Assembly: GCF_964355755.1 (NCBI RefSeq)
Contig: NC_092678.1
Location: 22,399,365 to 22,463,364, forward strand
Length of the DNA: 64,000 nt
Direction: 5' to 3'
Source: Antedon mediterranea
Lineage: Eukaryota > Animalia > Echinodermata
Part shown: positions 22,978 through 62,028 of the stretch, piece by piece
Numbering within the stretch: the stretch's first letter is position 1
Layout of the letters: each line of letters opens with the position of its first letter
The notes under the pieces: generated by a model
Seen by the model: the letters and a program-made list of their open reading frames with translations, nothing else
The model's database searches: none
Told to the model about the DNA's origin: nothing
Program-made: the position numbers and the translations under genes

Positions 22978-23121
22978 ATGACGTCAGGTGAGGAGACGCA
23001 GCTTTTGGTCCCCCCTCCTGCTGCTGCCAAAGATGAAGAGGACTCATCAGAGGCTCTTAATAAGCTCAAATTCCACACTAAGAAGATGAACTGGAACTTA
23101 AAAATACTGAAAGATCAATTG
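22978..23121 (+). CDS. Probable first coding exon of an unidentified gene (MTSGEETQLLVPPPAAAKDEEDSSEALNKLKFHTKKMNWNLKILKDQL)
   Basis: ATG-initiated 48-codon open frame with protein-like composition, ending at a consensus donor G|GTAAGT and preceded by a CpG-enriched region. No downstream exon recognised in the window, implying an intron of >40 kb if real. Confidence 0.6.
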
Positions 23122-25339: not shown

Positions 25340-25470
25340 GAATTAGTCTACACTGTCAAACTTTATGTGACAAAACTTTATGGTCAAATATGGTAGTGAT
25401 ATGACATCACCATGTCTATATGGGCACATCACATTTTTTTGTCACAAAGTTTAATAGTGTGGACAGGGCT
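25340..25470. mobile_element. MITE family A
   Basis: GTCTACACTGTCAAACTTT ... AAAGTTTAATAGTGTGGACAGGGCT; internal ATGGTAGTGATATG. Confidence 0.8.
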
Positions 25471-28786: not shown

Positions 28787-28897
28787 AGCTTGGTTCACAC
28801 TAGGACGTGACGACGGCGTAAACAATTTAACCAATCACAGCGATGGATTCTCCGAATTTTCGTCGTCCTTGCGTTGCCTCCTAATGTGAACCAAGCT
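28787..28897. mobile_element. MITE family B
   Basis: TIR AGCTTGGTTCACA / TGTGAACCAAGCT with TTA target duplication on both sides. Confidence 0.85.
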
Positions 28898-31800
28898 TTA
28901 GTACTGTAGTGTTAATATCTGGGTTTAAAGCATTGTTTGCAGTATGAGGTGGGGGAGGGGGGGAGTTTGGTGCGGGGCGGACAAGAGGGTAGTTCTTCTA
29001 TAATACAGTCATCTGTTAATTCCCCCCCCCCCCTATTCCACGTTATTTTTAAACGATATTTATTTATGAAACGCCAAAGGTCAATATAATATTTCCAAGA
29101 ATAAGCTCTAAATAGAACAATTTTCAACCTTTGTGCCAGATTAATTTTGAAATACAGTGTATGTACTGTTTAAATTAACTGTATTAAGTTCTGCATTTTT
29201 GCACCACGATGGCCAATCTCGGTTGACCAATGCATAATATAATATATAATCGTAACCGAGTTATATTTCATATACGTGTGTCAAATTTCGTTGCAAAGGA
29301 TAGGTAGCTGCTTAAATATGTGTAATAATGATTATAACTAGATTTGAACTCGTCACTACGGACGAGTTAGGTTATCCGCAGCGCAAAAGCCACGTGCACG
29401 TCATACGTTAGAATATTGCGCGCAGAAAAACGATTATGCCATTGAAAAAATGTTAGTGCGTTCTCTATTTTGCGTCACGTCAAAGTGTATACTGTATACG
29501 TACTACGTACAGTGCAGAATAGGTGAAAATAAGTGACCAAAGTTATTGACGCTTTTGGACATGATGACGTCATCACAATTTCTAAAATGGTGAATCATGC
29601 GAAAGATAATTGATTGACCTAGACAATATAAAGAAAGGGAGGGCAATGGAATACGGATAAGTGGAGATGCGCTCTATTAAATGTGATGAGCTATACGAAA
29701 GAGAAAAAAATCCTATATTTTATATTCGAGTGGCCATACAATGACGCCACAATGTCCTGTTAGCTATATCGATGCATGATTCGATATCTACAACTCATCA
29801 ACTTCCAGAATGTGTAATTTAAAAAAAGTTCACCACGTAGTTTATAATCTATGACTTTTAAAAAAAAAGCATAATTTTCACGAATTTTTTTACTTTTTCA
29901 TCAAAAACGCGCGCAAATTGTTCAATTCTACGTGCTCATATGACGTGATTTTAAGTCGAAATTGATTGAAAATTGGTAAATTTACTAGAAAGGGGTGGAA
30001 AAACAAAAATCAAGCAAAAAAAAGATGTTTTTGCGCTACGTGCGCACGCGCGCGTAAGAAAAGTGCGCACGCGTGGGAATTTTTGAAATGCTCAAAATGA
30101 CATGAAACGCGTTGAAAGTTGATTAGAAATTGATTTTTTGCATTTTGAAATTTTAAACGCGCGTGCGCGCGTGATTTTCTTTAAAACAAGCCATTTTCTC
30201 TCCATAGAAAGTTAGCGCATGATATGACTTAAATTTTCACCAAGTTTCAATACAAAATGACATATAGTTTTTATTCTATGATCAATCATTGAAATTCATA
30301 AAATCGCGCGTAACTTACGCTGCGCGACTCAAAATTCATAAAAAAAAGTTTCTTGCACATCTACAGCTACAGGGCAATCTTTTGACAAAGTTATACAATC
30401 ATATGTTGGCCAGAATTAGAGATACGCTGCCAACAAAAAATGGGAGAGAAGTGTGTAAAGAAAGAAATAAATACTAGATTTGAACTCGTCACTACGGACG
30501 AGTTAGGTTATCCGCAGAGCAAACGCCACGTGCACGTCATACGTTAGAATATTGCGCTCAGAAAAACGATTATGCCATTGAAATAATGTTAGTGCGCTCT
30601 CTATTTTGCGTCACGTCAAAGTATATACGGTATACACTATATTCTGTATACGTACTACATACAGTGCAGAATAGATGAAAATAAGGGAGCCAAGTTATTG
30701 ACGCTTTTGGACATGATGACGTCATCACAATTTAAAAAATGGTAGATTATGCGAAAGATAATTGATTGGCCTAGACAATATAACAAAATGGGGGGAAATG
30801 GAATACGGATAAGTGGAGATGCGCTCTATTAAATGTGATGAGCTATGCGAAAGAGACAAAAATCCAATATTTTATATTCGAGTGGCCATACGATGACGTC
30901 ACAATGTCCGGTTAGCCATATCGATGCATGATTTGATATTTATAACTCATCTACTACCAGAATATGTAATTATAAAAAAGTTCACCACGTAGTTTAGAAT
31001 TTATGACTGTTTAAAAAAAGGCATAATTTTGACTAATTTTTGAACTTTTTCATCAAAAATACGCGTAAATTGTTTAATTCTACGTGCTCGTATGACGTGA
31101 TTTTAAGTCGAAATTGTTTGAAAGTTGGTAAATTTTCTAAAAAAGACAGGAAAAACAAAAATCAAGCAAAAAAATGATGTTTTTGCGCTACGTGCGCACG
31201 TGCGCGTAAAAAAATTGCGCACGCGTGGGCATTTTTGAAATGCTCAAAATGACATGAAACGCGTAGAAAGTTGATTAGATATTGATTTTTCGCATTTTGA
31301 AATTTTAAACGCGCGTGCGCGCGTAACTTTTTGTAAAACATGCCATTTTTAATCCATAGAAAGTTTTCGCATTATATGACTTAAATGTTCACCAAGTTTC
31401 AATGCAAAATGAATTTTAGTTTTTAATCTATGTTCAATCATTGAAATTCATAAAATCGCGCGTAACTTACGCTGCGCGACTCGAAATTCATAAAAAAAAG
31501 TTTCTTGCACATCTACAGCTACAGGGCAATCTTATGACAAAGTTATACAGTCATTTGTTAGCCAGAATTAGAGATATGCTTGCAACAAAATTCATGGAAA
31601 GAAAGAAGAATATCGAAAAAAAAAAAAAAAAAAAAAAAAAAGATCCTTACAATAACAAGAGGTTATCCGCCAAGTGCGGATAACCAACTAGATTTGAACT
31701 CGTCACTACGGACGAGTTAGGTTATCCGCAGTGCAAAAGCCACGTGCACGTCATACGTTAGAATAGTGCGCGCAAAAAAATAAAACGATTATGGCATTGA

Positions 31801-34800: not shown

Positions 34801-36408
34801 GTTGATTTTTTGCATTTTGAAATTTTAAACGCGCGTGCGCGCGTAACTTTCTGTGAAACATGCAATTTTTAATCCATAGAAAGTTTGCGCTTGATATGAC
34901 TTAAATTTTCACAAAGTTTCAATACAAAATAACTTTCGGTTTTTAATCTATGATCAATCATTTAAATTCATAAAGTCGCGCGTAACTTACGCTGCGCAAC
35001 TCAAAATTCATAAAAAAAAGTTTCTTGCACATCTACAGCAAGAGGGCAATCTTTTGACAAAGTTATACAATCATATGTTGGCCAGAGTTAGAGATACGCT
35101 GCGAACAAAATTCGTGGAAAGAAAGAAGAACATAGAAAAAAAAAAAAAAGAAAAAAAAAAAGATCCTGACAATAACAAGAGGTTATCCGCCAAGTGCGGA
35201 TAACCAACTAGATTTGAACTCGTCACTACGTACGAGTTAGGTTATCCGCAGTGCAAAAGCCACGTGCACGTCACACGTTATAATATTGCGCGCAAAAAAA
35301 CGATTATGCCATTGAAAAAAATGTTAGTGTTCCCTCTATTTTGTGTCACGTCCAAATGTATACGGTATACACTATATACTGTATACGTACTACATACAGT
35401 GCAGAATAGGTGAAAAGAAGTGACCAAAGTTATTGACGCTTTTGAACATGATGACGTCTTAACAATTTAAAAAATGGTAAATCATGCGAAAGATAATTGA
35501 TTGACCTAGACAATATAAAGAAATGGAGGACAATGGAATACGGATAAGTGGAGATGCGCTCTATTAAATGTGATGAGCTATGCGAAAGAGACAAAAATCC
35601 TATATTTTATATTTGAGTGGCCATACGATGACGTCACAATGTCCAGTTAGCTATATTGATGCATGATTCGATATCTACAACTCATCAACTTCCAGAATTT
35701 GTAATTTTAAAAAAGTTCACCACGTAGTTTAGAATCTATGACTGTTTAAAAAAAGGCATAATTTTGACAAATTTTTGAACTTTTTCATTAAAAATGCGCG
35801 TAAATTGTTTAATTCTACGTGCTCGTATGACGTGATTTTAAGTCGAAATTGTTTAAAAGTTGGTAAAATTACTAGAGAAGGCTGAAAAAACAAAAATCAA
35901 GCCAAAAAAACATGTTTTTGCGCTACGTGCGCACGCGCGCGTAAAAATATTGCGCACCCGTGGGAATTTTTGAAATGCTCAAAATGACATGAAACTCGTA
36001 GAAAGTTGATTAGAAATAAATTTAGCGCATTTTGAAATTTTGAACGCGCGTGCGCGCGTAACTTTATGTAAAACATGCCATTTTTAATCCATAGAAAGTT
36101 TGCGCATGATATAACTTAAATTTTCACCAAGTTTCAATAGAAAATGACTTTTGGTTTTCAATCTATGATCAATCACTGAAATTCATAAAATCGCGCGTAA
36201 CTTACGCTGCGCAACTCCGAATTCGTCCAAAAGCTTGGCTGCACATCTACAGCTATAGGTCAATCTTATGACAAAGTTATACAATTTAATGTTGGCCAGA
36301 ATTAGAGATACGCTGCGAACAAAATTCGTGGAAAGAAAGAAGAACATAGAAAAAAAAAAAAAAGATCCTGACAATAACAAGAGGTTATCCGCCAAGTGCG
36401 GATAACCA

Positions 36409-39400
36409 ACTAGACATGTAACTCGTCACTTTGACGAGTTTGGTTATCCGCCGCGCAAGTGGTGCAACATTAACATTAAGGGGATAGGTTGAGGACAAAA
36501 GGAAGTGTTCACGTTGGCATTATGACCTGAACTGAAGAATATGATATGTTGTTATTGCTGAATTTTATTATTTAAATTCATATATAGTATACACAGTATA
36601 ATCTGTATCCATATCACATACAGTGTAGAATAGGTGAAATTACGGGACCCGCTATTTATTGCAATTTTTAACATGTTGACGGTTTTAAAATGAAACGCGA
36701 AGGTAGCAATTCCGAAAGGAAATTATCTCAGCAACAACGTATTAGCGTGTAGAAGAAATTTGAATACGTGAAATATTGATGCGCGCTCTTTTAAATGTAA
36801 TGAATTATGACGCAAAAGATGAAAATACGACCTTTTTTATATAACTAGCCATATGATGACGTCACAACATCCGATTGGCAACATTTTTACATAATTTCGT
36901 ATCTACAATCCAATAGCTTCCAGAAAAAGTTTTAATCGTGATTATCACATTTTATTCTTATGAGCTATAACAGATTAAAATTTACTGTAAAGATGAAATT
37001 AATGCCACACGTGATTTAAATTTTTAGGCATGATGACGTCAAAAAAATTAAAATATTTTTAACTCCTGCGAAAGATACTTGATTGACCTAGACAATATCA
37101 AAATCGGGGTGAAAATGGAAAACGGATAAGTGGAGATGCGCTCTATTCAATGTGATGAGCTATGACGAAAGGTACAAAAATCCTAAATTTTATATTCGCG
37201 TGGCCATACGATGACGTCACAATGTCCGGTTAGCCATATTAATACCTGATCCGATATCTACAACTCATCTACTTCCAGAATATGCCATCCACAAAAAGTT
37301 GACCGTCTAGTTTAGAAATTACGACTGTTTAAAAAAAGGCATATTTTAAACAAATTTTTTAACCTTTTCATAAAAAACGCGCGAAAATTGTCCAATTCGA
37401 CGTGCTCGTATGACGTATCTTTAAGTCGAAATTGTTTAAAATTTGGTAAAATTACTAGAAAAGGCTGGAAAAATATAAATCACGCGAAAAAAATACGTTT
37501 TCAATGCTACGTGCGCACCGCACACGTAAAAATGTGCGCACGCGTGGGAATTTTTGACATGCTTAAAACGACATGAATCGCGTAGAAAGTTGATTATAAA
37601 TTAATTTTGCGCATTTTGAAATTTTAAATGCGCGTGCGCGCGTAACTTTGTGTAAAACACGCAATTTTTTTTCAACAGAAAGTTAGCGCATGATATAAAT
37701 TAAACTTTTGCAAAGTTTCAAGTTGAAATGTTATTTGGTTGTCGAGCTATGTTAAATACGACAAAATCGTTAAATCGCGCGTAAGTCACGTTGCGCAATT
37801 GTAAACATCATGAAAAGCTTCGCTGCACATCTTCATGTGCATGGCGATATGTTGAGAAAGTTACAAAATGTTATGTTTGCAAGTTTTAGAGAAAAGCGAT
37901 CCACAAAAATCATACAGAAAGAAAGAAGACAAACTAGACATGTAACTCGTCACTTTGACGAGTTTGGTTATCCGCCGCGCAAGTGGTGCAACATTAACAT
38001 TAAGGGGATAGGTTGAGGACAAAAGGAAGTGTTCACGTTGGCATTATGACCTGAACTGAAGAATATGATATGTTGTTATTGCTGAATTTTATTATTTAAA
38101 TTCATATATAGTATACACAGTATAATCTGTATCCATATCACATACAGTGTAGAATAGGTGAAATTACGGGACCCGCTATTTATTGCAATTTTTAACATGT
38201 TGACGGTTTTAAAATGAAACGCGAAGGTAGCAATTCCGAAAGGAAATTATCTCAGCAACAACGTATTAGCGTGTAGAAGAAATTTGAATACGTGAAATAT
38301 TGATGCGCGCTCTTTTAAATGTAATGAATTATGACGAAAAAGATGAAAATACGACCTTTTTTATATAACTGGCCATATGATGACGTCACAACATCCGATT
38401 GGCAACATTTTTACATAATTTCGTATCTACAATCCAATAGCTTCCAGAAAAAGTTTTAATCGTGATTATCACATTTTATTCTTATGAGCTATAACAGATT
38501 AAAATTTACTGTAAAGATGAAATTAATGCCACACGTGATTTAAATTTTTAGGCATGATGACGTCAAAAAAATTAAAATATTTTTAACTCCTGCGAAAGAT
38601 ACTTGATTGACCTAGACAATATCAAAATTGGGGTGAAAATGGAAAACGGATAAGTGGAGATGCGCTCTATTCAATGTGATGAGCTATGACGAAAGGTACA
38701 AAAATCCTAAATTTTATATTCGCGTGGCCATACGATGACGTCACAATGTCCGGTTAGCCATATTAATACCTGATCCGATATCTACAACTCATCTACTTCC
38801 AGAATATGCCATCCACAAAAAGTTGACCGTCTAGTTTAGAAATTACGACTGTTTAAAAAAAGGCATATTTTAAACAAATTTTTTAACCTTTTCATAAAAA
38901 ACGCGCGCAAATTGTCCAATTCGACGTGCTCGTATGACGTATCTTTAAGTCGAAATTGTTTAAAATTTGGTAAAATTACTAGAAAAGGCTGGAAAAATAT
39001 AAATCACGCGAAAAAAATACGTTTTCAATGCTACGTGCGCACCGCACACGTAAAAATGTGCGCACGCGTGGGAATTTTTGACATGCTTAAAACGACATGA
39101 ATCGCGTAGAAAGTTGATTATAAATTAATTTTGCGCATTTTGAAATTTTAAATGCGCGTGCGCGCGTAACTTTGTGTAAAACACGCAATTTTTTTTCAAC
39201 AGAAAGTTAGCGCATGATATAAATTAAACTTTTGCAAAGTTTCAAGTTGAAATGTTATTTGGTTGTCGAGCTATGTTAAATACGACAAAATCGTTAAATC
39301 GCGCGTAAGTCACGTTGCGCAATTGTAAACATCATGAAAAGCTTCGCTGCACATCTTCATGTGCATGACGATATGTTGAGAAAGTTACAAAATGTTATGT

Positions 39401-39596
39401 TTGCAAGTTTTAGAGAAAAGCGATCCACAAAAATCATACAGAAAGAAAGAAGACAAATAAAAAGTTGATGTTGATGATTTCGTACAATCACAAGAGGTTA
39501 TCCTGCAACTTCGTTGCGGATAACCAATAAAAAGTTGATGTTGATGATTTCGTACAATCACAAGAGGTTATCCTGCAACTTCGTTGCGGATAACCA
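36409..39596 (-). mobile_element. Two near-identical long-subfamily elements, one nested in the other
   Basis: 1524-bp bodies at 36409-37932 and 37933-39456, followed by two identical 70-bp termini (39457-39526, 39527-39596). Confidence 0.85.
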
Positions 39597-42500: not shown

Positions 42501-45500
42501 TGTTTAATTCTACGTGCTCGTATGACGTGATTTTAAGTCGAAATTGTTTGAAAGTTGGTAAATTTTCTAAAAGAGACAGGAAAAACAAAAATCAAGCAAA
42601 AAAATGATGTTTTTGCGCTACGTGCGCACGTGCGCGTAAAAAAATTGCGCACGCATGGGAATTTTTGAAATGCTCAAAATGACATGAAACGCGTAGAAAG
42701 TTGATTAGATATTGATTTTTCGCATTTTAAAATTTTAAACGCGCGTGCGCGCGTAACTTTTTGTAAAACATGTCATTTTTAATCAATAGAAAGTTTGCGC
42801 ATTATATGACTTAAATGTTCACCAAGTTTCAATATAAAATGAATTTTAGTTTTTAATCTACGATCAATCATTGAAATTCATAAAATCGCGCGTAACTTAC
42901 GCTGCGCAACTCCGAAATCGTCCAAAAGCTTGGCTGCACATCTACAGCTACAGGTCAATCTTATGACAAAGTTATACAATGTTATATTTGCCAGAATTAG
43001 AGATATGCGACCAACAAAATTCGTGGAAAGAAAGAAGAACAAAGAAAAAGAAAAAGAAAAAAAAAAAAAAAAAAAAAAAGATCCTGACAATAACAAGGGG
43101 TTATCCGCCAAGTGCGGATAACCAACTAGATTTGAACTCGTCACTACGGACGAGTTAGGTTATCCGCATCGCAAAACCCACGCGCATGACACCTAAGTTA
43201 GAATATTGCGCGCAGAAAAACGATTATGCCATTGAAAAAATGTTAGTGAGCCCTCTATTTTGTGTCGCATCTAAGTGTGTACGGTATACACTATATACTG
43301 TATACGTACTACATACAGTGCAGAATAGGTGAAAATAAGTGACCAAAGTTATTGACGCATTTGAACATGATGACGTCATCACAACTTTAAAAATGGTGAA
43401 TCATGCGAAAGATAATTGATTGATCTAGACAATATAAAAAAATTGAGTGAAATGGAATAAAGATAAGTAGAGATGCGCTCTATTAAATTGACGAGCTATG
43501 ACGAAAGAGAAAAAAATCCTATATTTTATATTCGGGTGGCCATACGATGACGTCACAATGTCCGGTTAGCCATATCAATGCATGATTCGAGAAAAACAAC
43601 TCATCTACTTCCAGAATATGTAATTTTAAAAAAGTTCACCACGTAGTTTAGAATTTATGACTGTTTAAAAAAACGTCTAATTTTGACGATTTTTTGAAGT
43701 TTTTCATCAAAAACACGCGCAAATTATCCAATTCTACGTGCTCGTGTGACGTGATTTTAAGTCGAAATTGATTGAAAATTTATAAATTTACTAGAAAAGG
43801 CTGAAAAAACAAAAATCAAGCAAAAAAAAGATGTTTTTGCGCAACGTGCGCATGCGCGCGTAAAAAAATTGCGCACGTGTGGGAATTTTTGAAATGCTCA
43901 AAATGACATGAAACGCATAGAAAATTGATTAGAAATTGATTTTTCGCATTTTGAAATTTTAAAGGCGCGTGCGCGCGTAACTTTATGTAAAACATGCCAT
44001 TTTTAATCCATAGAAAGTTTGCGCATGATATGACTTAAATTTTCACCAAGTTTCAATACAAAATGACATTTGGTTTTTAATCTATGATCAATCATTGAAA
44101 TTCATAAAATCGCACTTAACTTACGCTGCGCGACTCTAAAGTAAAAAAACGAAACGTCCTGCACATCTACCGCTACAGGTCAATATTATGACAAAGTTAC
44201 ACAATCTTATGTTGGCCAGAATTAGAGATATGCGACCAACAAAATTCGTGGAAAGAAAGAAGAAAATAGAAAAAAAAAGAGAAAAAAAATAAAAAAAAAA
44301 AGATCCTGACAATAACAAGGGGTTATCCGCCAAGTGCGGATAACCAACTAGATTTGAACTCGTCACTACGGACGAGTTAGGTTATCCGCCTCGCAAACGC
44401 CACGTGCACATCAAACGTTAGAATATTGCGCACAGAAAAACGATTATGCCAATGAAAAAATGTTAGTGCGCTCTCTATTTTGTGTCACGTCTAAATATAT
44501 ACAGTATAACACTATATTCTGTATACGTACTACATACAGTTCAGAATAGGTGAAAATAAGTGACCAAAGTTAATGACGCTTTTGCACATGATGACGTCAT
44601 AAAAAATTTTAAAATGGTGAATCATGCGAAAGATAATTGATTGACCTAGACAATATAAAGAAATGGAGGGCAATGGAATACGGATAAGTGGAGATGCGCT
44701 CTATTAAATGTGATGAGCTAAGACGAAAGTGAAAAAAATCCTATATTTTATATTTGAGTGGCCATACGATGACGTCACAATGTCCGGTTAGCTATATTGA
44801 TGCATGATTCGATATCTACAACTCATCTACTTTCAGAATCTGTAATTTTAAAAAAGTTCACCACGTAGTTTAGAATCTATGACATTTTAAAAAAAGGCAT
44901 AATTTTCACGAATTTTTGAACTTTTTCATCAAAAACGCGCGCAAATTTTTCAATTCTACGTGCTCGTATGACGTGATTTTAAGTCGAAATTGTTTGAAAG
45001 TTGGTAAATCTACTAAAAAAAGACAGGAAAAACAAAAATCAAGCCAAAAAATGATGTTTTTGCGCTACGTGCGCACGCGCGCGTAAAAAAATTGCGCACG
45101 TGTGGTAATTTTTGAAATGCTCAAAATGACATGAAACGCGTAGAAAGTTGATTAGAAGTTGATTTTTCGCATTTTGAAATTTTAAACGCGCGTGCGCGCG
45201 TAACTTTTTGCGCAACATGCCATTTTTAATCCATAGAAAGTTTGCGCTTAATATGACTTAAATTTTCACCAAGTTTCAATACAAAATTACTTTTGGTTTT
45301 TAATCTACGATCAATCATTGAAATTCATAAAATCGCGCGTAACTTACGCTGCGCAACTCAGACTGGACCGAAAACCTTATTACGACATCTTCAGATAGAG
45401 GTCAATCTTCTGATAAAGTTATACAATGTTATGTTAAGAAGATTTTGAGATACACGCGCAACAAAATTCTGGGAAAGAAAGAAGAAAAAAGAAAAAAAAG

Positions 45501-48500
45501 AAAAAAAAAAAAAAAAAAAAGATCCTGACAATAACAAGGGGTTATCCGCCAAGTGCGGATAACCAACTAGATTTGAACTCGTCACTACGGACGAGTTAGG
45601 TTATCCGCGGCGCAAAAGCCACGCGCATGACACCTAAGTTAGAATATTGCGCGCAGAAAAACGATTATACCATTGAAAAAATGTTAGTGAGCCCTCTATT
45701 TTGCGTCGCGTCTAAGTGTGCACGGTATACACTATATACTGTATACGTACTACATAAAGTGCAGAATAGGTGAAAATAAGTGACCAAAGTTGTTGACGAT
45801 TTTGCAAATGATGACGTTATAACAGTCTTAAAAATTGTTAACCATGCGAAAGATAATTGATTGACCTAGACAATATAAAAAAATTGAGGGAAATGGAATA
45901 CGGATAAGTAGAGATGCGCTCTATTAAATGTGACCAGCTATGACGAAAGAGAAAAAACTCCTATATTTTATATTCGAGTGGCCATACGATGACGTCATAA
46001 TGCTTGGTTAGCCATATTAATGCATGATTCGATAAAAACAACTCATCTACTTCCAGAATATGTAATTTAAAAAAAGTTCACCGCGTAGTTTAGAATTTAT
46101 GACTGTTTAAAAAAAGGCATAATTTTGACGAATTTCTGAACTTTTTTTTAAAAATGCGCGCAAATTGTCAAATTTTAAGTGCTCGTATGAGGTGATATTA
46201 AGTCGAAATTGTATAAAAATTGGTAAAATTACTAGAAAATACTGGAAAAACAAAAATCAAGCAAAAAAAAATTGTTTTTGCGCTACGTGCGCACGCGCGC
46301 GTAAAAAAAGTGCGCATGCCTGGCAATTTTTGAAATGCTCAAAATGACATGAAACGCGTAGAAAGTTGATTAGAAGTTGATTTTTTGCATTTTGAAATTT
46401 TAAACGTGCGTGCGCACGTAACTTTTAGCGCAATCTGCCATTTTTAATCCATAGAAAGTTTGCGCTTGATATGACTTAAATTTTCACCAAGTTTCAATAC
46501 AAAATGACTTTTGGTTTTTAATCTATGATCAATCATTGAAATTCATAAAATTGCGCGTAACTTACGCTGCGCGACTCAAAATTCATAAAAAAAAGTTTCT
46601 TGCACATCTACAGCAACAGGGCAATATTTTTCCAAAGTTATACAATCATATGTTGGCCAGAATTAGAGATAGGCTGCGAACAAAATTCGTGGAAAGAAAG
46701 AAGAATAAAGAAAAAAAAAAAAAAAAAAAAAAAAGATCCTTACAATAACAAGGGGTTATCCGCCAAGTGCGGATAACCAACTAGATTTGAACTCGTCACT
46801 ACGGACGAGTTAGGTTATCCGCAGTCCTATAGCCACGTGCACGTCATACGTTGGAATATTGCGCGCAGAAAAACGATTATGCCATTGAAAAAATGTGAGT
46901 GCGCTCTCTATTTTGTGTCACGTCAAAGTGTATACGGTATACACTATATACCGTATACGTACTACATACAGTTCAGAATAATTGAAAATAAGTGACCAAA
47001 GTTATTGACGCTTTTGCACATGATGACGTCATAACAATTTTTAAAATGGTGAATCATGCGAAAGATAATTGATTGACATAGACAATATAAAGAAATGGAG
47101 GGCAATGGAATACGGATAAGTGGAGATGCGCTCTATTAAATGTGATGAGCTATACGAAAGAGAAAAAAATCCTATATTTTATATTCGAGTGGCCATACGA
47201 TGACGTCACAATGTCCTGGAAGTCATATTGATACATGATTCGATATCTACAACTCATCTACTACCAGAATATGTAATTATAAAAAAGTTTACCACGTAGT
47301 TTAGAATCTATGACTGTTTAAGAAAAGGCATAATTTTGACAAATTTTTGGACTTTTTCATCAAAATTGCGCGCAAATTGTTTAATTCTACGTGCTCGTAT
47401 GACGAGATTTTAAGGCAAAATTGATTGAAAATTGGTAAATATATTATAAAAGACAGAAAAAACAAAAATCAAGCAAAAAAAAGATGTTTTTGCGCTACGT
47501 GCGCACGCGCGCGTAAAAAAATTGCGCAAGCCTGGGAATTTTTGAAATGCTCAAAATGACATGAAACGCGTAGAAAGTTGATTAGAAATTGATTTTTCGC
47601 ATTTTGAAATTTTAAACGCGCGTGCGCGCGTAACTTTCTGTAAAACATGCCATTTTCTCTCCATAGAAAGTTAGCGCATGATATGACTTAAATTTTCACC
47701 AAGTTTCAATACAAAATGACATATAGTTTTTATTCTATGATCAATCATTGAAATTCATAAAAATCGCGCGTAACTTACGCTGCGCGACTCAAAATTCATA
47801 AAAAAAAGTTTCTTGCACATCTAAAGCTACAGGGCAATCTTTTGACAAATTTATACAATCATATGTTGGCCAGAATTAGAGATACGCTGCCAACAAAAAA
47901 TGGGAGAGAAGTGTGTAAAGAAAGAAATAAATACTAGATTTGAACTCGTCACTACGGACGAGTTAGGTTATCCGCAGCGCAAAGGCCACGTGCACGTCAT
48001 ACGTTAGAATATTGCGCGCAGAAAAACGATTAAGGCATTGAAACAATTTCAGTGTGCTCTCTATTTTTCGTCACGTCTGAGTGTATACGGTATACCCTAT
48101 ATACTGTATACGTACTACATACAGTCCAGAATAGGTGAAAATAAGTGACCAAAGTTATTGACGCTTTTGAACATGATGACGTCGTCACAATTTTGAAAAT
48201 GGTGAATCGTGCGAAAGATAATTGATAGACCTAGACAACATAAACAAATGGGGGGAAATGGAATACAAATAAGTGGAGATGCGCTATATTAAATGTGACG
48301 AGCTACGAGGAAAGAGACAAAAATCCTATATTTTATATTCGAGTGGCCATACGATGACGTCACAATGTCCGGTTAGCCATATTGATGCATGATTTGATAT
48401 CTGCAACTCATCTACTTTCAGAATATGTAAAAAAAAATAAAATTCACCATGTAGTTTAGAATCTATGACTGTTCAAAAAAAGGTATAATTTTGACACATT

Positions 48501-51500: not shown

Positions 51501-54500
51501 AAATGACATGAAACGCGTAGAAAGTTGATTAGAAATTGATTTTTCGCATTTTGAAATTTTAAACGCGCGTGCGCGCGTAACTTTTTGTAAAACATGCTAT
51601 TTTTAATCCATAGAAAGTTTGCGCATGATATGACTTAAATTTTCACCAAGTTTCAATACAAAATGACTTTTAGTTTTTATTCTATGATCAATCATTGAAA
51701 TTCACAAAATCGCGCGTAACTTACGCTGCGCGACTCGAAATTTGAAAATAAAAGTTTCTTGCACATCTACAGCTACATATCAATCTTATGAAAAAGTTAT
51801 ACAATCATATGTTGCCCAAAATTAGAGATATGCGACCAACAAAATTCGTGGAAAGAAAGAAGAAAATAGAAAAAAAAAGAGAAAAAAAAAAAGATCCTGA
51901 CAATAACAAGAGGTTATCCGCCAAGTGCGGATAACCAACTAGATTTGAACTCGTCACTACGTACGAGTTAGGTTATCCGCAGCGCAAAGGCCACGTGCAC
52001 GTCGTACGTTAAAATATTGCGCGCAGAAAAACGATTAAGTCATTGAAACAATTTCAGTGTGCTCTTTATTTTTCGTCACGTCTGAGTATATACGGTATAC
52101 ACTATATACTGTATACGTACTACATACAGTGCAGAATAGGTGAAAATAAGTGACCAAATTATTGATGCTTTTGAACATGATGACGTCATCACAATTTTGA
52201 AAATGTTGAATCGTGCGAAAGATAATTGATTGACCTAGACAATATAAGAAAATTGAGGGAAATGGAATACGGATAAGTGGAGATGCGCTCTATTAAATGT
52301 GACGAGCTATGACGAAAGAGAAAAAAATCCTATATTTTTTATTCGAGTGGCCATACGATGACGTCATAATATTCAGTTAGCCATATTAATGCAAGATTCG
52401 ATAAAGACAACTCATCTACTTCCAGAATATGTAATTTAAAAAATGTTCACCACGTAGTTTAGAATTTATGACTGTTTTAAGAAAGGCATAATTTTGACAA
52501 ATTTTTGAACTTTTTCATCAAAAACGCGTGCAAATTGTTCAATTCTACGTGCTCGTATGACGTGATTTTAAGTCGAAATTGATTGAAAATTTCTAAATTT
52601 ACTAGAAAAGGCTGAAAAAACAAAAATCAAGCAAAAAAAAGATGTTTCTGCGCTACGTGCGCACGCGCGCGTAAAAAATTTGCGCACGCGTGGGAATTTT
52701 TGAAATGCTCAAAATGACCTGAAACGCGTAGAAAGTTGATTAGAAATTGATTTTACGCATTTTGAAATTTTAAACGCGCGTGCGCGCGTAACTTTATGGA
52801 AAAGTGCGATTTTCAATCCATAGAAAGTTAGCGCATGATATAAACTACACTTTTGCCAAGTTTCAATTAAAATTGCTTTTTGGTTTTTGATATATGTTAA
52901 ATACGCAAAAATCACAAAAACGCGCGTAACTTACGCTGCGCAACTATAAAGTCAAAAAACGAAACGTCCTGCACATCTACAGCTACAGGTCAATCTTATG
53001 AAAAAGTTACACAATATTTTGTTTGCCGGAATTTGAGATACGCTGCCAACAAAATTCAGGGAAAGAAAGAAGAATAACATAGAAAAAAAAAAAAAAAAAA
53101 AAAAAAAAGATCCTGACAATAACAAGGGGTTATCCGCCAAGTGCGGATAACCAACTAGATTTGAACTCGTCACTTTGACGAGTTCGGGTTATCCGCGCAA
53201 ACGCAACATGCACATACGTTTAAAATATATGAACGCCGACAATTATTATGCCATCCTATGACATGAATTAAATATGTTTACAGTGCTGAATTGTACCTAT
53301 TTTGTAGCATACATCATATTACAGTATTTACAGAATACACTGTATATGTTATATACAGTGAAGCATAGACGGAATTACGAGACCCATCTTTTAAATCTAA
53401 TTATTAACACGATGACATCATCAAATTGACATATAAAAATAACAATTTTAGAAGATAATTATCTAATTAATTACATCAATACAAATTTGAAGAATTTTGG
53501 GCACGTAAAAGTGAGATGCGCTCTCGTTTAAACGCAATGAACTTTTACGCAAGAGGTGAAAATACGACTTTTTTTATTCAATTGGCCATATGATGACGTC
53601 ACAACATCTGATTGGCAAAATGTTCACATGATTTCGTATCTACAATCCAATAGCTTCCAGAAAACGTTTTAATCATGATTATCACTTTTTATTCAGACGA
53701 GCTATAACAGAGTAAAATTTACTGTAAAGATGAAAATAAGTGACCCACGTTATTTACATTTTTAGACATGATGACGTCATAACAATTAAAATATTTTTAT
53801 CTCATGCGAAAGATAATTGATTGACGTAGACAATAATAAAATCTCGGGGGAAATGGAATTCGTATGAGCGAGATGCGCTTTGTTGAATGTGATGAGCAAT
53901 AACGAAATAGACAAAAATCCTATATTTTATATTCGAGTGGCCATATGATGACGTCACAATGTCCGGTTAGCCATATTCATGCATGATTTGATATCTACAA
54001 CTCATCAACTTCCAGAATGTGTAATTTAAAAAAAGTTCACCACGTAGTTTATAATCTATGACTTTAAAAAAAAAAGCATAATTTTCACCAATTTTTTAAC
54101 TTTTTCATCAAAAACGCGCGCAAATTGTTCAATTCTACGTGCTCGTATGACGTGATTTTAAGTCGAAATTGATTGAAAATTGGTAAATTTACTAGAAAAG
54201 GGTGGAAAAATAAAAATCAAGCAAAAAAAAGATGTTTTTGCGCTACGTGCGCACGCGCGCGTAAGAAAAGTGCGCACGCGTGGGAATTTTTGAAATGCTC
54301 AAAATGACATGAAACGCGTAGAAAGTTGATTAGAAATTGATTTTTCGCATTTTGAAATTTTAAACGCGCGGCGCGCGTAATTTTCTGTAAAACATGCCAT
54401 TTTCTCTCCATAGAAAGTTAGCGCATAATATGACTTAAATTTTCACCAAGTTTCAATACAAAATGACATATAGTTTTTATTCTATGATCAATCATTGAAA

Positions 54501-55904
54501 TTCATAAAATCGCGCGTAACTTACGCTGCGCGACTCAAAATTCATAAAAAAAAAGTTTCTTGCACATCTACAGCTACAGGGCAATCTTTTTGACAAATTT
54601 ATACAATCATATGTTGGCCAGAATTAGAGATACGCTGCCAACAAAAAATGGGAGAGAAGTGTGTAAAGAAAGAAATAAATACTAGATTTGAACTCGTCAC
54701 TACGGACGAGTTAGGTTATCCGCAGCGCAAAAGCCACGTGCACGTCATACGTTGGAATATTGCGCGCAGAAAAACGATTATGCCATTGAAAAAAATGTTA
54801 GTGCGCTCTCTATTTTGCGTCACGTCAAAGTATATACGGTATACACTATATTCTGTATACGTACTACATACCGTGCAGAATAGGTGAAAATAAGGGACCC
54901 AAGTTATTGACGCTTTTGGACATGATGACGTCATCACCATTTTTAAAATGGTGAATCATTCGAATGATAATTGATTGGCCTAGACAATATAACAACATGG
55001 GGGAAATGGAATACGGATAAGTGGAGATGCGCTCTATTAAATGTGATGAGCTATGCGAAAAAGACAAAAATCCTATATTTTATATTCGAGTGGCCATATG
55101 ATGACGTCACAATGTCCGGTTAGCCATATCGATGCATGATTTGATATTTACAACTCATCTACTTTTAGAATCTGAAATTTTAAATATTTTCACCTCGGAG
55201 TTTAGAATCTATGACTTTTTAAAAAAAGGCATAATTTTCACAAATTTTTGAACTTTTTCATCAAAAACGCGCGCAAATTGTTCAATTCTACGTGCTCGTA
55301 TGACGTGATTTTAAGTCGAAATTGTTTGAAAGTTGGTAGATTTACTAGAAAAGGCTGAAAAAACAAAAATCAAGCAAAAAAAAGATGTTTTTGCGCTACG
55401 TGCGCACGCGCGCGTAAAAAATATGCGCACGCGTGGGAATTTTTGAAATGCTCAAAATGACCTGAAACGCGTAGAAAGTTGATTAGAAATGGATTTTTCG
55501 CAATTTGAAATTTTAAACGCGCGTGCGCGCGTAACTTTCTATAAAACATGCCATTTTCTCTCCATAGAAAGTTAGAGCATGATATGACTTAAATTTTTAC
55601 CAAGTTTCAATACAAAATTACTTTTAGTTTTTATTCTATGATCAATCATTGAAATTCATAAAATCGCACGTAACTTGCGCTGTGCGACTCTAAAGTCAAA
55701 AAACGAAACTTCCTGCACATCTACTGCTACAGGTCAATATTATGACAAAGTTACACAATCTTATGTTGGCCAGAATTAGAGATATGCGTGCAACAAAATT
55801 CGTGGAAAGAAAGAAGAAAATAGAAAAAAAAAGAGAAAAAAAAAAAGAAAAAAAAAAAAGATCCTGACAATAACAAGGGGTTATCCGCCAAGTGCGGATA
55901 ACCA

Positions 55905-58900
55905 ACTAGATTTGAACTCGTCACTACGGACGAGTTAGGTTATCCGCAGCGCAAAGGCCACGTGCACGTCATACGTTAGAATATTGCGCGCAGAAAAACG
56001 ATTAAGGCATTGAAACAATTTCAGTGTGCTCTCTATTTTTCGTCACGTCTGAGTGTATACGGTATACCCTATATACTGTATACGTACTACATACAGTCCA
56101 GAATAGGTGAAAATAAGTGACCAAAGTTATTGACGCTTTTGAACATGATGACGTCATCACAATTTTGAAAATGGTGAATCGTGCGAAAGATAATTGATAG
56201 ACCTAGACAACATAAACAAATGGGGGGAAATGGAATACAAATAAGTGGAGATGCGCTATATTAAATGTGACGAGCTACGAGGAAAGAGACAAAAATCCTA
56301 TATTTTATATTCGAGTGGCCATACGATGACGTCACAATGTCCGGTTAGCCATATTGATGCATGATTTGATATCTGCAACTCATCTACTTTCAGAATATGT
56401 AAAAAAAAATAAAATTCACCATGTAGTTTAGAATCTATGACTGTTCAAAAAAAGGTATAATTTTGACACATTTTTGAAATTTTTTTTAAAAAACGCGCAC
56501 AAATTGTTCAATTTTACGTGCTCGTATGACGTGATTTTAAGTCGAAATTGTTTGAAAGTTGGTAAAATTACTAGAGAAGGCTGAAAAAACAAAAATCAAG
56601 CAAAAAAAACATGTTTTTGCGTTACGTGCGCACGCGCGCGTAAAAATATTGCGCACGCGTGGGAATTTTTGAAATGCTCAAAATGACATGAAACGCGTAG
56701 AAAGTTGATTAGAAATGAATTTTGCGCATTTTGAAATTTTGAATGCGCGTGCGCGCGTAACTTTCTGTAAAACCTGCCATTTTTAATCCATAGAAAGTTT
56801 GCGCATGATATAAATTAAATTTTCACCAAGTTTCATTGGAAAATGACTTTTTGTTTTTAATCTATGTTCAATCATTGAAATTCATAAAATTGCGCGTAAC
56901 TTACGCTGCGCAACTCAAAAATCAAAAAACAAAGTTTCTTGCACATCTACAGATATAGGTCAATCTTATGACAAAGTTATACAATCTTATGTTTGCCAGA
57001 ATTAGAGATACGCTCCCAACAAAATTCGTGGAAAGAAAGAAGAACTAGACATGAAACTCGTCACTTTGACGAGTTAGTTATCCGCTCGACAAACGCCACG
57101 TGCACGTCATACGTTAGAATATTGCACACAGAAAAATATTAAGGCATTATGACCTGAACTGAAGAATATGATATGTTGTTATTTCTGAATTCTGTTATTT
57201 TGTGTCATATAGTATACACAGTACAATCTGTATACATATCACAAACAGTGTAAAATAGGTGAAATTACGGGACCCGTATTTTATTGTAATTTTTAACATC
57301 TTGACGGTTTCAAAATGAAATGCAAAAGTAGAAATTTCTGAATGAAATTATCTCAGCAACAACATATTAACGTATAGAAGAAATTTTAATACGTGAAATA
57401 TTGATGCACGCTCTTTTAAATGTAATGAAATATAATGCAAAAGATGAAAATACGACTTTTTTTATTTAACTGGCCATATGATGACGTCACAACATTCGAT
57501 TGCCACAATTTACACATGATTTTGTATCTACAATAAAATAGCTTCCTGAAAACGTTTTAATCGTGATTATCACATTTTATTCTTACGAGGTATAACAGAT
57601 TAAAATTTAATGTAAAGATAAAATTAATGACCAACGTAATTTAAATTTTTAGGCATGATGACGTTAAAAAAATTAAAAAAATTTTAATTCATGCAAAAGA
57701 TAGTTGATTGACCTAGAATATATTAAAATCGGGGTGAAAATAGACAACGAATAAGTGGAGATGCGCTCTATTAAATGTGATGAGCTATGACGAAAGAGAC
57801 AAAAATCCTATATTTTATATTGGCGTGGCCATACGATGACGTCACAATGTCCGGTTAGCCATATTAATGCATGATCCGATATTTACAACTCATCAACTTC
57901 CAGAATATGTAATTAAAAAAAAGTTCTCCATGTAGTTTAGAATCTATGACTGTTTAAAAATAGGCATAATTTTGACGAATTTTTGAACTTTTTCACCAAA
58001 AACGCGTGCAAATTATCTAATTCGACGTGCTCGTATGACGTAATTTTAAGTCGAAATTGTTTAAAATTTGGTAACATTACTAGAAAAGGCTGAAAAAACA
58101 TAAATCACGCGAAAAAAATATGTTTTTAACGCTACGTGTGCACCGCGTGCGTAAAAATTTTCGCGCGCGTGGGAATTTTTGACATGCTCAAAATGACATG
58201 AAACGCATAGAAAGTTGATTAGAAGTTGATCTTTCGTATTCTAAAATTTTAAACGCGCGTGCGCGCGTAACTTTTTGTGAAACATGCTATTTTTAATCCA
58301 TAGAAAGTTTGCGCTTGATATGACTTAAATTTGCACAAAGTGTCAAAACAAAATTATGTTTCGTTTTTAGTCTATGATCAATCATTGAAATTCATAAAAT
58401 CGCGCGTAAGTCACGTTGCGCAACTCTGACGTCATTCAAAAATAGGAGGTGCACAAGTTCACGTAAATGTCGTTATGTTGACAAAGTTACGATATGTTCT
58501 GTTTACACGTTTTAGAGAAACGCGACGCACAAAAATGACAGAAGGAAAGAAGAATAATACAGAAAAACTAGATTTGAACTCGTCACTTTGACGAGTTCGG
58601 GTTATCCGCGCAAACGCAACATGCACATACTTTAAACTATATGAATCTCGACAATTATTATGCCATCCTATGACATGAAATAAATATCTTTACAGTGCTG
58701 AATTGTACCTATTTTGCAGCATACATCATGTTACAGTATTTACAGAATACACTGTATATGTTATATACAGTGTAGCATAGACAAAATTACGAGACCCATC
58801 TTTTAAATCCAATTATTAACACAATGACGTCATCAAATTGACATATAAAGATAACAATTTTAAAAGATAATTATCTAAATAATTACATTAAAACAAATTT

Positions 58901-59935
58901 GAAGAATTTTGGGCACGTAAAAGTGAGATGCGCTCTATTTAATGTGATGAGCAATAACGAAAGAGTAAAAAATCCTATATTTTACATTCGTGTGGCCATA
59001 CGATGCCGTCATAACATCCGAGAGGTAAAGATTCTGCATGAATTCATATCTACAACATATCTGCTTACATATTAAATTAAAAAAATTGGGTGTCGTGGAT
59101 GATCCTGAGGAGCTATAATAGATTCAAAATTGGCATTATTTTGACAATATTTGTAACTTTTTCAACTAAAACGCGCGCAAATGGTCTAAATCAACGTGCT
59201 CGTATGAAGTCATTTTAATTTGAAATGATGTAAATCTTTTTTAAAATGACTAAGAAAGGCTGTAAAATCATAATTCAAGAAAAAAACACATGATTTTCAT
59301 GCTACGTGCGCACCTTACGCGTAATCTTTTTCGCGCGCGTGGGAATTTTTGACATGCTTAAAATGTCATGATCAGCGTAGAAAGTTGATTAGAAATTTAT
59401 TTTGCGCATTTTGAAACTTTAAATGCGCGTGTGCGCGTAACTTCTTGTAAAACATGCCATTTTTAATCCATAGAAAGTTTGACCTTGATATAACTTAAAT
59501 TTTCACTAAGTGTCAATTCAAAATGACTTTTATTTTTTATCCTATGATCAATCATTGAAATTCATAAAATCGCGCGTAAGTCACGTTGCGCAACTCTGAC
59601 GTCATTCAAAATATGGAGGTGCACAACTTCAGGTAAATGCCCATATAATGACAAAGTTATACAAAAGTTATATTCATAAGCTATAGGGGATATGCTGCTC
59701 ACAAAAATCAGGGAAAGAAAGAAGAACAAAGAAGATGATGATGAAAAAAAAAGATATTTACAATCACATGGGTTATCCTGCAACTAAGTTGCGGATAACC
59801 AAAAAAAAAAATATGATGAAACAGGACGATTACAAGGAGTTATCCGCTACTAAGCGGATAACTAATAAAGAAAAAAAAAAAAAAAAAAAAGATCCTGACA
59901 ATAACAAGAGGTTATCCGCCAAGTGCGGATAACCA
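55905..59935 (-). mobile_element. Three-level nest of different Helentron-like subfamilies
   Basis: Bodies start at 55905, 57044 and 58567; three different hairpin termini are stacked, ending at 59800, 59863 and 59935. Confidence 0.85.
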
Positions 59936-62028
59936 ACTAGATTTGAACTCGTCACTACGGACGAGTTAGGTTATCCGCCTCGCAAACGCCACGTGCACAT
60001 CATACGTTAGAATATTGCGCACAGAAAAACGATTATGCCAATGAAAAAATGTTAGTGCGCTCTCTATTTTGTGTCACGTCTAAATATATACGGTATAACA
60101 CTATATTCTGTATACGTACTACATACAGTTCAGAATAGGTGAAAATAAGTGACCAAAGTTAATGACGCTTTTGCACATGATGACGTCATAAACAATTTTA
60201 AAATGGTGAATCATGCGAAAGATAATTGATTGACCTAGACAATATAAAGAAATGGAGGGCAATGGAATACGAATAAGTGGAGATGCGCTCTATTAAATGT
60301 GATGAGCTAAGACGAAAGTGAAAAAAATCCTATATTTTATATTTGAGTGGCCATACGATGACGTCACAATGTCCGGTTAGCTATATTGATGCATGATTCG
60401 ATATCTACAACTCATCTCCTTCCAGAATCTGTAATTTTAAAAAAGTTCACCACGTAGTTTAGAATCTATGACATTTTAAAAAAAGGCATAATTTTCACGA
60501 ATTTTTGAACTTTTTCATCAAAAACGCGCGCAAATTTTTCAATTCTACGTGCTCGTATGACGTGATTTTAAGTCGAAATTGTTTGAAAGTTGGTAAATCT
60601 ACTAAAAAAAGACAGGAAAGACAAAAATCAAGCCAAAAAATGATGTTTTTGCGTTACGTGCGCACGCGCGCGTAGAAAAATTGCGCACGTGTGGTAATTT
60701 TTGAAATGCTCAAAATGACATGAAACGCGTAGAAAGTTGATTAGAAGTTGATTTTTCGCATTTTGAAATTTTAAACGCGCGTGCGCGCGTAACTTTCTCC
60801 GCAACATGCCATTTTTAATCCATAGAAAGTTTGCCCTTAATATGACTTAAATTTTCACCAAGTTTCAATACAAAATTACTTTTGGTTTTTAATCTACGAT
60901 CAATCATTGAAATTCATAAAATCGCGCGTAACTTACGCTGCGCAACTCAGACTGGACCGAAAACCTTATTACGACATCTTCAGATAGAGGTCAATCTTCT
61001 GATAAAGTTATACAATGTTATGTTAAGAAGATTTTGAGATACACGCGCAACAAAATTCTGGGAAAGAAAGAAGAAAAAAGAAAAAAAAGAAAAAAAATAA
61101 AAAAAAAAAAAAAAAGATCCTGACAATAACAAGGGGTTATCCGCCAAGTGCGGATAACCAATTAATAATTATTGTATCGTACATGTAAATAGACAGGCTG
61201 GTAAAATTCGAAAATGTAATTTTTCACACGTCTTGGATTTGCAATCTTATTTCAAAGGTGTTAGGATGACAAATCCACTGAGTTATACTTAGCTTTAGGC
61301 CTATAATGTACATTTTTTCAAAAAGGTTGTTTAAGATGTATACTATAGGTTCAGCCCGTGATATAGTAAAGATAAATATTTTGGCACATATGGCGTTTCA
61401 AACGTATAATATAATACTCGCATTATTGTATTTGTAGACAAGAATAAGACAATAACTACACAGTAGGGGCAAAGTCTATTTTTCAATAGATGTTTTTAAA
61501 AGATGTTAATGTCCCGAGATGCTCGGAAAACAAATTTCACATCAATTTTATGCGACAATAAATCATTTAAATCTTGAAAAGTGTCCGGTAAAATGTATAT
61601 CATTTCGAAGCTGGCAAAAATTCCTACAAATTTATTTTTAAATGGTATACATGTGGATTTGATTTTGCGAAAGGTCTGTAATATGTTCCCGACGACCAAA
61701 ACGTACTTTGAAGTGACACATAAACCAAAGACCAAAGCGGAATGTATTTCATTTCGTATGTCCTGTTTGCTTGTTCGAAGACAATCCGGTATGAGAACAG
61801 TTTGTTTTCTTGTTCATTGAGGTGTGGATCCCACTTCCATATTGTAAATAATTGGTGGAAATGTTAATATCTGGTGTTAATTTGTTACCGTCTGCTGGTT
61901 ACGACCGGAACTTGAAGACTGGTTTGTAGTGTGAAGTGGAATCATGATATTCACGGTTAGAAATTACAGCTAGAATTTTGAAATAGCTTTTAGTTTTTTT
62001 AAATACAGTTTTAACAACAAACGACAAA

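What the first reader, a model, noticed from the sequence alone, without database searches (positions are those of the whole stretch)
29337..61160. 32-kb self-targeting cassette array of rolling-circle elements: 25 units, several subfamilies, one orientation, no spacer DNA
Seen: every unit has the same polarity and no host DNA lies between units. Full junctions are base-precise (GGTTATCCGCCAAGTGCGGATAACCA|ACTAGATTTGAACTCGTCACTACGGACGAGTTAGGTTATCCGC), bringing two hairpins and three copies of the subTIR together. Neighbours are often from clearly different subfamilies (short type; long types at 36409, 37933, 49143, 57044; a third type at 53154 and 58567), and the closest relatives are usually non-adjacent (47933~55905, 44347~59936, 29337~40749). 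The flanks rejoin as GATTATA|ATTAATAATT, a single TT site on the minus strand. Established: Helentrons use a HUH Rep/helicase, insert at TT without duplication and can form tandem arrays. Inference: simple concatemer replication or satellite-style unequal crossover should give similar neighbours, so this looks more like repeated, orientation-specific insertion at or near the 5' hairpin of resident copies. That would be an integron-like landing pad, possibly inside a host intron.
Basis: partly seen in the sequence, partly recalled or inferred. Interest (0 to 1): 0.85.

Follow-up and report, generated by a model that had tools for sequence, protein, structure and literature searches.

The report
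Transposon array grown by self-insertion
In a feather-star gene, likely within its first intron, 25 copies of a gene-less rolling-circle-type jumping element stand end to end in one direction with nothing between them, and displaced end-pieces stacked in last-in-first-out order show that copies landed in older copies, so the array likely grew mainly by the element inserting at its own front end and was then partly reshuffled like a satellite.

Summary
Observation largely confirmed: 25 units (29337-61160), one orientation, no foreign DNA, Helitron2/HLE2-type ends on the minus strand. Three are nested insertions 63-71 nt inside a resident 5' end, with the displaced heads stacked last-in-first-out (u7/u8; u22/u23/u24); rejoined hosts match intact sisters at 99.4-99.7%. 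Seven junctions lack a head. Five precise junctions switch subfamily within 7-33 bp of the joint, which crossover explains poorly. The youngest sister pairs share identity that stops at unit ends. This supports repeated insertion at or near resident 5' ends. Against a pure insertion model: bodies are recombinant mosaics, one 1.07-kb tract spans a junction, and there is weak collinearity (u1-3~u10-12, u5-7~u15-17; P about 0.015-0.05). The family is very high-copy. The array lies after exon 1 of a 953-aa Antedon gene. No transposase partner, genome or long reads could be examined. Self-insertion is proposed for Fusarium Helitron2, and this scan noted nested stacks three times elsewhere in this genome (unchecked notes). 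New here: mostly base-precise, mixed-subfamily joints. New variant of a known kind.

The parts
29337..61160 (-). Array of 25 non-autonomous Helitron2/HLE2-type elements (19 short of about 1.14-1.22 kb; long types u7, u8, u17, u23; u24 third type; u20 chimera), all 5'->3' on the minus strand
29337..29379 (-). 3' tail of unit 1: 3' ATIR/subTIR (29370-29379), hairpin (29347-29368), CTAGT end; the same layout opens all 25 units on the + strand
61135..61160 (-). 5' head of unit 25: ATIR at the end pairing with its inverted copy (10-bp stem, z -4.9); 18 such heads in the array
31661..31729 (-). Example of a precise tail-to-head joint (CTAGT|TGG). 14 of 24 junctions, at unit starts 31687, 35207, 36409, 39597, 43125, 44347, 45566, 46780, 49143, 50731, 51938, 53154, 55905, 59936; five switch subfamily (36409, 39597, 49143, 50731, 53154)
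36409..39596 (-). Nest 1: unit 8 (37933-39526) inserted 70 nt inside the 5' end of unit 7; orphan head of unit 7 at 39527-39596; host rejoined is 1594 nt, 5 differences from unit 8
55905..59935 (-). Nest 2, three deep: unit 22 (55905-57043) holds unit 23 (57044-58566) holds unit 24 (58567-59801); orphan heads of 23 (59802-59864) and 22 (59865-59935) in last-in-first-out order; unit 22 rejoined is 1210 nt, 7 differences from unit 16
30428..30516 (-). Example of a headless junction; the same 5'-truncated end recurs at six junctions (30473, 33992, 40749, 41901, 47933, 54681); a seventh, different one at 32838
   Evidence: multi-copy in the sequencing runs
53154..54680 (-). Unit 20: chimera, first about 360 nt like unit 24, middle like the long types, last about 700 nt 95-100% like unit 1
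59936..61160 (-). Unit 25, outermost 5' unit, 99% identical to unit 13 (44347-45565); different DNA follows their heads
22978..23121 (+). First coding exon (48 aa, then a GT donor) of a 953-aa uncharacterised Antedon mediterranea protein; residues 49-953 are not in the window, so the array likely lies in intron 1

Best explanation
This is a head-to-tail stack of 25 non-coding elements with Helitron2 (HLE2) ends that likely grew mainly by repeated, same-strand insertion of new copies at, or within about 70 bases of, the 5' end of resident copies, moved by a Rep/helicase predicted to be encoded elsewhere, and was later partly homogenised by recombination. Shown: the ends, the T|T sites without duplication, three nests with heads in last-in-first-out order, and subfamily switches at the joints. 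Inferred: a transposase bound at a resident 5' end, or at a tail-head joint, opens and nicks that strand; the joint is the same sequence as a circle junction, which Helraiser cleaves precisely in vitro. An incoming copy is joined there exactly (precise joint) or in the adjacent T-rich tract (nest). Each insertion recreates the site, so the array keeps growing in one direction. Headless junctions are likely old nests whose stacked heads were lost, then spread as read-through composites or by recombination.
For: Rejoined hosts equal intact sisters in length with 5 and 7 differences, and the heads in nest 2 match their own subfamilies in reverse order. All four interruptions that can be placed (u7, u22, u23, and u3 by comparison with u19) lie within 80 nt of the 5' end on the same strand. 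The chance from target availability is 1.3e-5 for T|T and 4e-4 for TTTT|Y; for the three nests with orphan heads alone it is 1.4e-4 and 1.1e-3. No interruption of a body and no inverted copy was found. Five precise joints switch subfamily inside 7-33 bp of shared sequence, 1-8% of the perfect-match sequence available; the rough product is 1e-8, against one crossover inside a body, u20. The three youngest pairs share identity up to the unit ends: the exact match extends 0-1 base left of the start for u16/u22 and u7/u8, and 26 bases into the conserved head for u13/u25. After removing divergence effects, linkage across junctions is r=0.03 (P=0.34), while within units at a like gap 5 of 12 windows reach P<0.02. 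Helraiser cuts its end junction precisely (PMC5876387, passages). Self-insertion near 5' ends is proposed for FoHeli (PMC5148889).
Against: Nine of the 14 precise joints join short to short units and cannot be told from concatemer or crossover products. Bodies are mosaics; four-gamete incompatibility rises from 0.30 under 100 bp to 0.39-0.51 beyond 200 bp. A 1069-bp tract at 96.3% crosses a junction (u1|u2 ~ u20|u21). Collinear top-2 pairs number 8 against 3.5 expected, P=0.017; 0.05 without nested units; 0.40 among short units only. Raw cross-junction correlation was 0.36 (P=0.004) before correction, and 3 of 16 corrected block pairs still reach P<0.05, one at r=0.5. Seven heads are missing, and six headless junctions share one breakpoint, so they are not six independent insertions; their joints read CTAGT|A or CTAGT|C, not T|T. 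No autonomous partner, circle or empty allele was seen.
Confidence: 0.6

Rival explanations
1. Satellite route: a few insertions seeded a short mixed array, and most of the 25 units then arose by unequal crossover of multi-unit blocks and gene conversion within and between arrays; self-insertion accounts only for the nests and the long-type units.
For: Mosaic bodies; runs u1-u2-u3 ~ u10-u11-u12 and u5-u6-u7 ~ u15-u16-u17, P 0.014-0.05; identity peaks at lags 9-10 (86.5% against 84.2%); one junction-spanning tract; six headless junctions with one shared breakpoint.
Against: The largest-lag test is not significant (P 0.46-0.66) and collinearity vanishes among short units (P=0.40). The youngest pairs are whole single units. 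Five subfamily switches sit at the joints. Corrected cross-junction linkage is near zero.
Confidence: 0.25
2. Pre-assembled multimers: rolling-circle concatemers, read-through composites (one head, several tails) or mixed circles joined by the transposase off the chromosome were inserted in a few events, without targeting of resident copies beyond the nests.
For: Precise joints are what circle replication makes (PMC5876387). There are 25 tails to 18 heads, like the 3' excess of CRe elements (PMC3627910). The headless junction is multi-copy in the runs, and the outermost tail unit u1 is itself headless.
Against: Neighbours at precise joints are 74-91% alike, not near-identical. Nests show sequential events on an existing copy. 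Partners after headless junctions are hardly closer than random sets (P=0.04 in one of seven windows, 0.105 overall).
Confidence: 0.11
3. Assembly artefact: copies from different loci were chained by the assembler.
For: No long read or contig spanning the array was available; the family is very high-copy.
Against: Units differ by 0.3-32%, the nests balance exactly and the flanks close at one T|T site. One short contig runs 14 letters past a headless junction (under the tool's 31-letter bar for bridging).
Confidence: 0.04

Closest known systems
Non-autonomous Helitron2 / HLE2 elements (Bao and Jurka 2013, PMC3627910, passages and section 8; Li et al. 2024, PMC11417382, passages), including HINE/DINE-1 (Thomas et al. 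2014, PMC4067079, passages)
   Same: 5' ATIR at the end folding into a hairpin, 3' ATIR just upstream of a 3' hairpin, T|T insertion without duplication, T-rich targets, more 3' ends than 5' ends, no coding capacity.
   Different: Here whole elements of several subfamilies are stacked end to end. DINE/HINE satellites described in those passages are internal repeats carried by the element. The 3' end reads CTAGT, as in Helitron1 and proto-Helentron.
FoHeli self-insertion and multiple 5' termini in Fusarium (Chellapan et al. 2016, PMC5148889, passages and section 10)
   Same: Duplicated 5' ends of 31-85 nt attributed to self-insertion; one FoHeli4 inserted 2 bp upstream of another's 5' end; three tandem copies in Metarhizium with the same two explanations left open.
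   Different: Those are single cases or stacked ends. Here 25 copies, nests with hosts intact, and 14 base-precise joints, five between subfamilies.
Tandem Helitron arrays of plants, bats and Xenopus (cited in PMC5876387 and PMC5148889; PMC12001565, passages; the plant centromere paper itself was not read)
   Same: Head-to-tail joints in one orientation, truncated copies.
   Different: Attributed there to rolling-circle concatemers; here neighbours are unlike and three events are shown to be insertions into residents.
Double insertion as seed of satellites (McGurk and Barbash 2018, PMC5932611, one passage)
   Same: Repeated insertion at one site makes tandems that recombination can expand.
   Different: That route is described for elements that duplicate their target; here no target is duplicated and the element's own ends supply the T|T site.

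Membership tests
Helitron2 / HLE2, non-autonomous | 5' ATIR within 0-2 bp of the 5' end that pairs with downstream bases to form a hairpin | tested here: met
   18 heads; 10-bp stem, z -4.9, 0 of 200 shuffles as good, for the u25 head
Helitron2 / HLE2, non-autonomous | 3' ATIR about 20-30 bp from the 3' end, immediately upstream of a hairpin | tested here: met
   ATIR 33 bp from the end in short units, between the Helitron2 range and the HINE range of 38-60; 8-9-bp stem folds in both types tested, z -1.7 and -2.8
Helitron2 / HLE2, non-autonomous | Insertion between T and T (or T and C) without target duplication | tested here: met
   Intact sisters u8 and u16 serve as empty sites for two nests; outer flanks also T|T, no empty allele seen. 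The element carries two terminal Ts whose split between the ends cannot be fixed. The seven headless joints do not read T|T.
Helitron2 / HLE2, non-autonomous | Interspersed, multi-copy family | tested here: inconclusive
   Summed contig depth 1e5-1e6 over the array against about 250 in the unique flank; two tail ends with other flanks in run X1. Solo versus arrayed share not measurable.
Helitron2 / HLE2, non-autonomous | Autonomous partner with the same ends encoding a RepHel transposase of the HLE2 clade | not testable with these tools
   No genome held; tail pattern absent from metagenome and viral contigs; longest open frame in the array 102 aa
Helentron in the strict sense | Apurinic endonuclease domain in the partner's transposase | not testable with these tools
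   No partner available
Satellite DNA | Head-to-tail monomers homogenised locally, neighbours more alike than average | tested here: not met
   85.1% against 84.2%, P=0.13
Satellite DNA | Higher-order blocks from unequal crossover | tested here: inconclusive
   8 against 3.5 collinear pairs, P=0.017; 0.40 among short units
Integron (definition recalled) | Adjacent tyrosine integrase and gene-bearing cassettes with att sites | tested here: not met
   Units have no open frame over 102 aa; the frames of 70 aa or more in the window were read by eye and not searched against families; none is long enough for an intronless integrase outside a 21-bp repeat

The most novel reading that the evidence does not exclude
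The chromosomal tail-head joint acts as a site-specific attachment site for the element's own HUH transposase. Rep nicks CTAGT| in the array as it does in a circle and both releases single units between two tails and integrates incoming units of any subfamily there with base precision, so even headless units travel as cassettes. Arrays would then be self-renewing, transposase-built cassette chains, a route from transposon to satellite that needs neither target duplication nor concatemer replication.
Probability: 0.3. Interest if true: 0.75.

Novelty: new variant of a known kind. Interest (0 to 1): 0.52.

Why it matters
How Helitrons choose and join a target, and whether their tandem arrays come from concatemers or from repeated insertion, is open: the Fusarium paper leaves exactly this choice unresolved. 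This locus keeps the order of events readable and points to the element's own 5' end as the preferred target. That gives a direct test in an existing Helraiser-type assay and a documented intermediate between dispersed transposon and satellite. Self-targeting would also explain how a very abundant family limits damage to its host. No host function of the array is shown.

Tried and rejected
No whole genome is held, so solo and joined copies could not be counted. The tail pattern found 0 matches in metagenome contigs and 0 in viral contigs. Rfam gave 0 matches in the window. Pfam gave 0 families for the host protein and its Anneissia relative. Only short contigs, no long reads, were served; they neither span the array nor give the share of solo ends. 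Runs X1-X5 hold only small shares and nothing is drawn from them about habitat or species. A raw cross-junction linkage signal (rho 0.36-0.48) first looked like satellite-type inheritance but mostly vanished once divergence from consensus was removed. A single tree of whole units (10 of 22 inner branches open) is unreliable because the units are mosaics. Plain concatemer replication of one circle was rejected for the mixed joints. A chance double duplication of body and head for u7/u8 was rejected as less simple than one insertion, and it cannot explain nest 2. Sequence look-ups in earlier findings with a short and a long unit returned nothing, so identity with the 1.6-kb element of the earlier notes is not established.
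Full report
Observation. Splitting at the tail motif gives 25 units starting at 29337 to 59936, none on the other strand. Every base of 29337-61160 matches another unit and no inverted match over 60 bp exists; the flanks hold no copy. Identities run from 68% to 99.7%. Of 25 units, 23 have a non-adjacent best hit, and neighbours are not more alike than shuffled order (85.1% against 84.2%, P=0.13). The longest open frame in the array is 102 aa, and Rfam finds nothing in the window.

Element type. On the minus strand each complete unit starts with T, a 10-bp repeat and its inverted copy, and ends with the inverted repeat, a hairpin and CTAGT. This fits the Helitron2 definition (PMC3627910, passages) and the DINE-1/HINE layout (PMC4067079, passages); HLE2 elements insert between T and T (PMC11417382, passages). 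No partner transposase could be sought, as no genome is held, so the endonuclease that defines Helentrons is untested. Summed contig depth over the array is 1e5-1e6 against about 250 in the unique flank. The tool warns that this is no copy number; I read it only as a very abundant family.

Junctions. There are 25 tails but 18 heads. Of 24 internal junctions, 14 are precise tail-head joints, 3 are nests and 7 lack a head. Unit 8 sits 70 nt inside the 5' end of unit 7: host plus orphan head is 1594 nt, the length of unit 8, with 5 differences. Units 22, 23 and 24 nest three deep with their heads in reverse order; unit 22 plus its orphan is 1210 nt, the length of unit 16, with 7 differences, and the middle orphan resembles the head of the long unit 17. 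These are direct records of insertion into residents, at T|T and without duplication. Counting target sites on both strands of intact relatives (u8, u16, u17, u19), the chance that the four placeable interruptions (u7, u22, u23, u3) all fall within 80 nt of the head on the same strand is 1.3e-5 for T|T and 4e-4 for TTTT|Y; for the three with orphan heads it is 1.4e-4 and 1.1e-3.

Precise joints. Five of the 14 join different subfamilies, and the switch lies within 7-33 bp of shared sequence, 1-8% of the perfect-match tracts of 7 bp or more between the two types. The rough product is 1e-8, against one switch inside a body, unit 20 (for unit 20 I took unit 24 as the type's intact form). The three youngest pairs (99.7, 99.4, about 99%) share identity over whole units that stops at the ends. 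Raw linkage between the end of one unit and the start of the next, over the 15 of 24 junctions with short-type sequence on both sides, was rho 0.36, P=0.004. After removing each unit's overall divergence it fell to r=0.03, P=0.34; 3 of 16 block pairs kept P<0.05. Within units at a like gap 5 of 12 windows reached P<0.02, and at no gap 7 of 9 did. Junctions therefore act largely as boundaries. The other nine precise joints are short-to-short and uninformative.

Recombination. Bodies are mosaics: nearest relatives change along units, and four-gamete incompatibility among 16 of the 19 short units rises from 0.30 to 0.39-0.51 with distance. One 1069-bp tract at 96.3% crosses a junction (u1|u2 with u20|u21). 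Collinear top-2 pairs number 8 against 3.5 expected (P=0.017); P is 0.05 without nested units and 0.40 among the 19 short units, and the largest-lag test is negative. An older block duplication is possible, not shown. Six headless junctions share one breakpoint. Four of those ends differ by 0-5% over their last 300 columns, while the units after them are barely closer than random sets (P=0.04 in one of seven windows, 0.105 overall). In one search a contig of run X8 runs 14 letters past this junction at depth 1581, where low-depth contigs of that run stand at 16-40; run X6 shows 23,774 against about 300. This suggests tens of copies, more than the six here, so like junctions probably exist elsewhere. 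The contig falls short of the tool's 31-letter bar for bridging.

Context. An exon at 22978-23121 is identical to residues 1-48 of a 953-aa Antedon mediterranea protein, with a relative in Anneissia japonica. The rest of the protein is not in the window, so the array likely lies in intron 1, antisense to the gene.

Mechanism. Shown: ends, target, nests, subfamily switches at joints, mosaic bodies. Inferred: a RepHel supplied from elsewhere engages a resident 5' end or joint and exposes that strand, and incoming copies join at the nick or in the neighbouring T tract. Helraiser cleaves the plus strand of its end junction precisely, and circles with precise junctions appear to be preferred substrates (PMC5876387, passages), which makes a chromosomal joint a plausible substrate; Helraiser is a Helitron1, so this is an extrapolation. 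Whether the head or the tail side directs the precise events cannot be told here; the nests point to the head side, the 3' excess of CRe elements (PMC3627910, section 8) to the tail.

Comparison. Self-insertion near 5' ends, a copy 2 bp upstream of another's 5' end, and a three-copy tandem of open origin are reported for fungal Helitron2 (PMC5148889, passages and section 10; its supplementary table S6 and figures S11-S13 were not seen and may bear on this). Tandem arrays are known in plants and bats (cited), in Xenopus (PMC12001565, passages) and as Helitron-derived subtelomeric repeats in Hydractinia (PMC11934779, passages). Oriented Helitrons cap Paramecium chromosomes (PMC13085455, passages). 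Double insertion seeds satellites for elements with target duplications (PMC5932611, one passage). Nine searches (mostly listings only) showed no long mixed-subfamily array with precise joints attributed to self-targeting; the library lacks most subscription papers. I reconstructed the nests before opening the scan's notes. Those notes report nested stacks of rolling-circle-type elements at three other places in this genome, two of them of a 1.6-kb element, and head-to-tail Helitron2 arrays in other genomes; they are unchecked and supplied leads to PMC5148889, PMC3627910 and PMC11417382.

Verdict. A real, well-preserved Helitron2-type array, likely built mainly by self-targeted insertion (0.6) with a satellite-type contribution that may be the larger part (0.25). 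New variant of a known kind; interest 0.52. If joints prove to be true attachment sites for the transposase (0.3), interest would be 0.75.

Noticed in passing
window 8030-13590, with short relatives near 874-1020, 6680-6810, 14600-14840, 15885-16005, 17535-17645, 25345-25465: A small element with inverted ends and internal 21-bp repeats occurs at least seven times; one copy has expanded to about 254 repeats (5.3 kb, 96% match) inside an intron.
   Followed up: no
window about 5400-18070, + strand: Apparent multi-exon gene read by eye (exons near 5401-5605, 6467-6621, 7768-7983, 17321-17399, 17762-17852, 17950 onward); not identified.
   Followed up: no
window 22978-23121: Exon 1 of a 953-aa protein with no Pfam family, 90% alike over the exon in Anneissia japonica; intron 1 would exceed 40 kb, 32 kb of it this array.
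   Followed up: partly
long units 36409, 37933, 49143, 53154, 57044: Each carries an old internal duplication (about 126-161 bp alignable at 70-72%, offset about 355 bp) that short units and unit 24 lack.
   Followed up: partly
window 4690-5350: Low-complexity TAG/CCTA-rich tract upstream of the first apparent exon.
   Followed up: no
window 20505-20819: Two-copy 151-bp tandem repeat.
   Followed up: no
window 28400-29300: Contig depth 6,000-8,000 against about 250 further left points to another repeat in the left flank; a short element with inverted ends is visible near 28788-28898.
   Followed up: no
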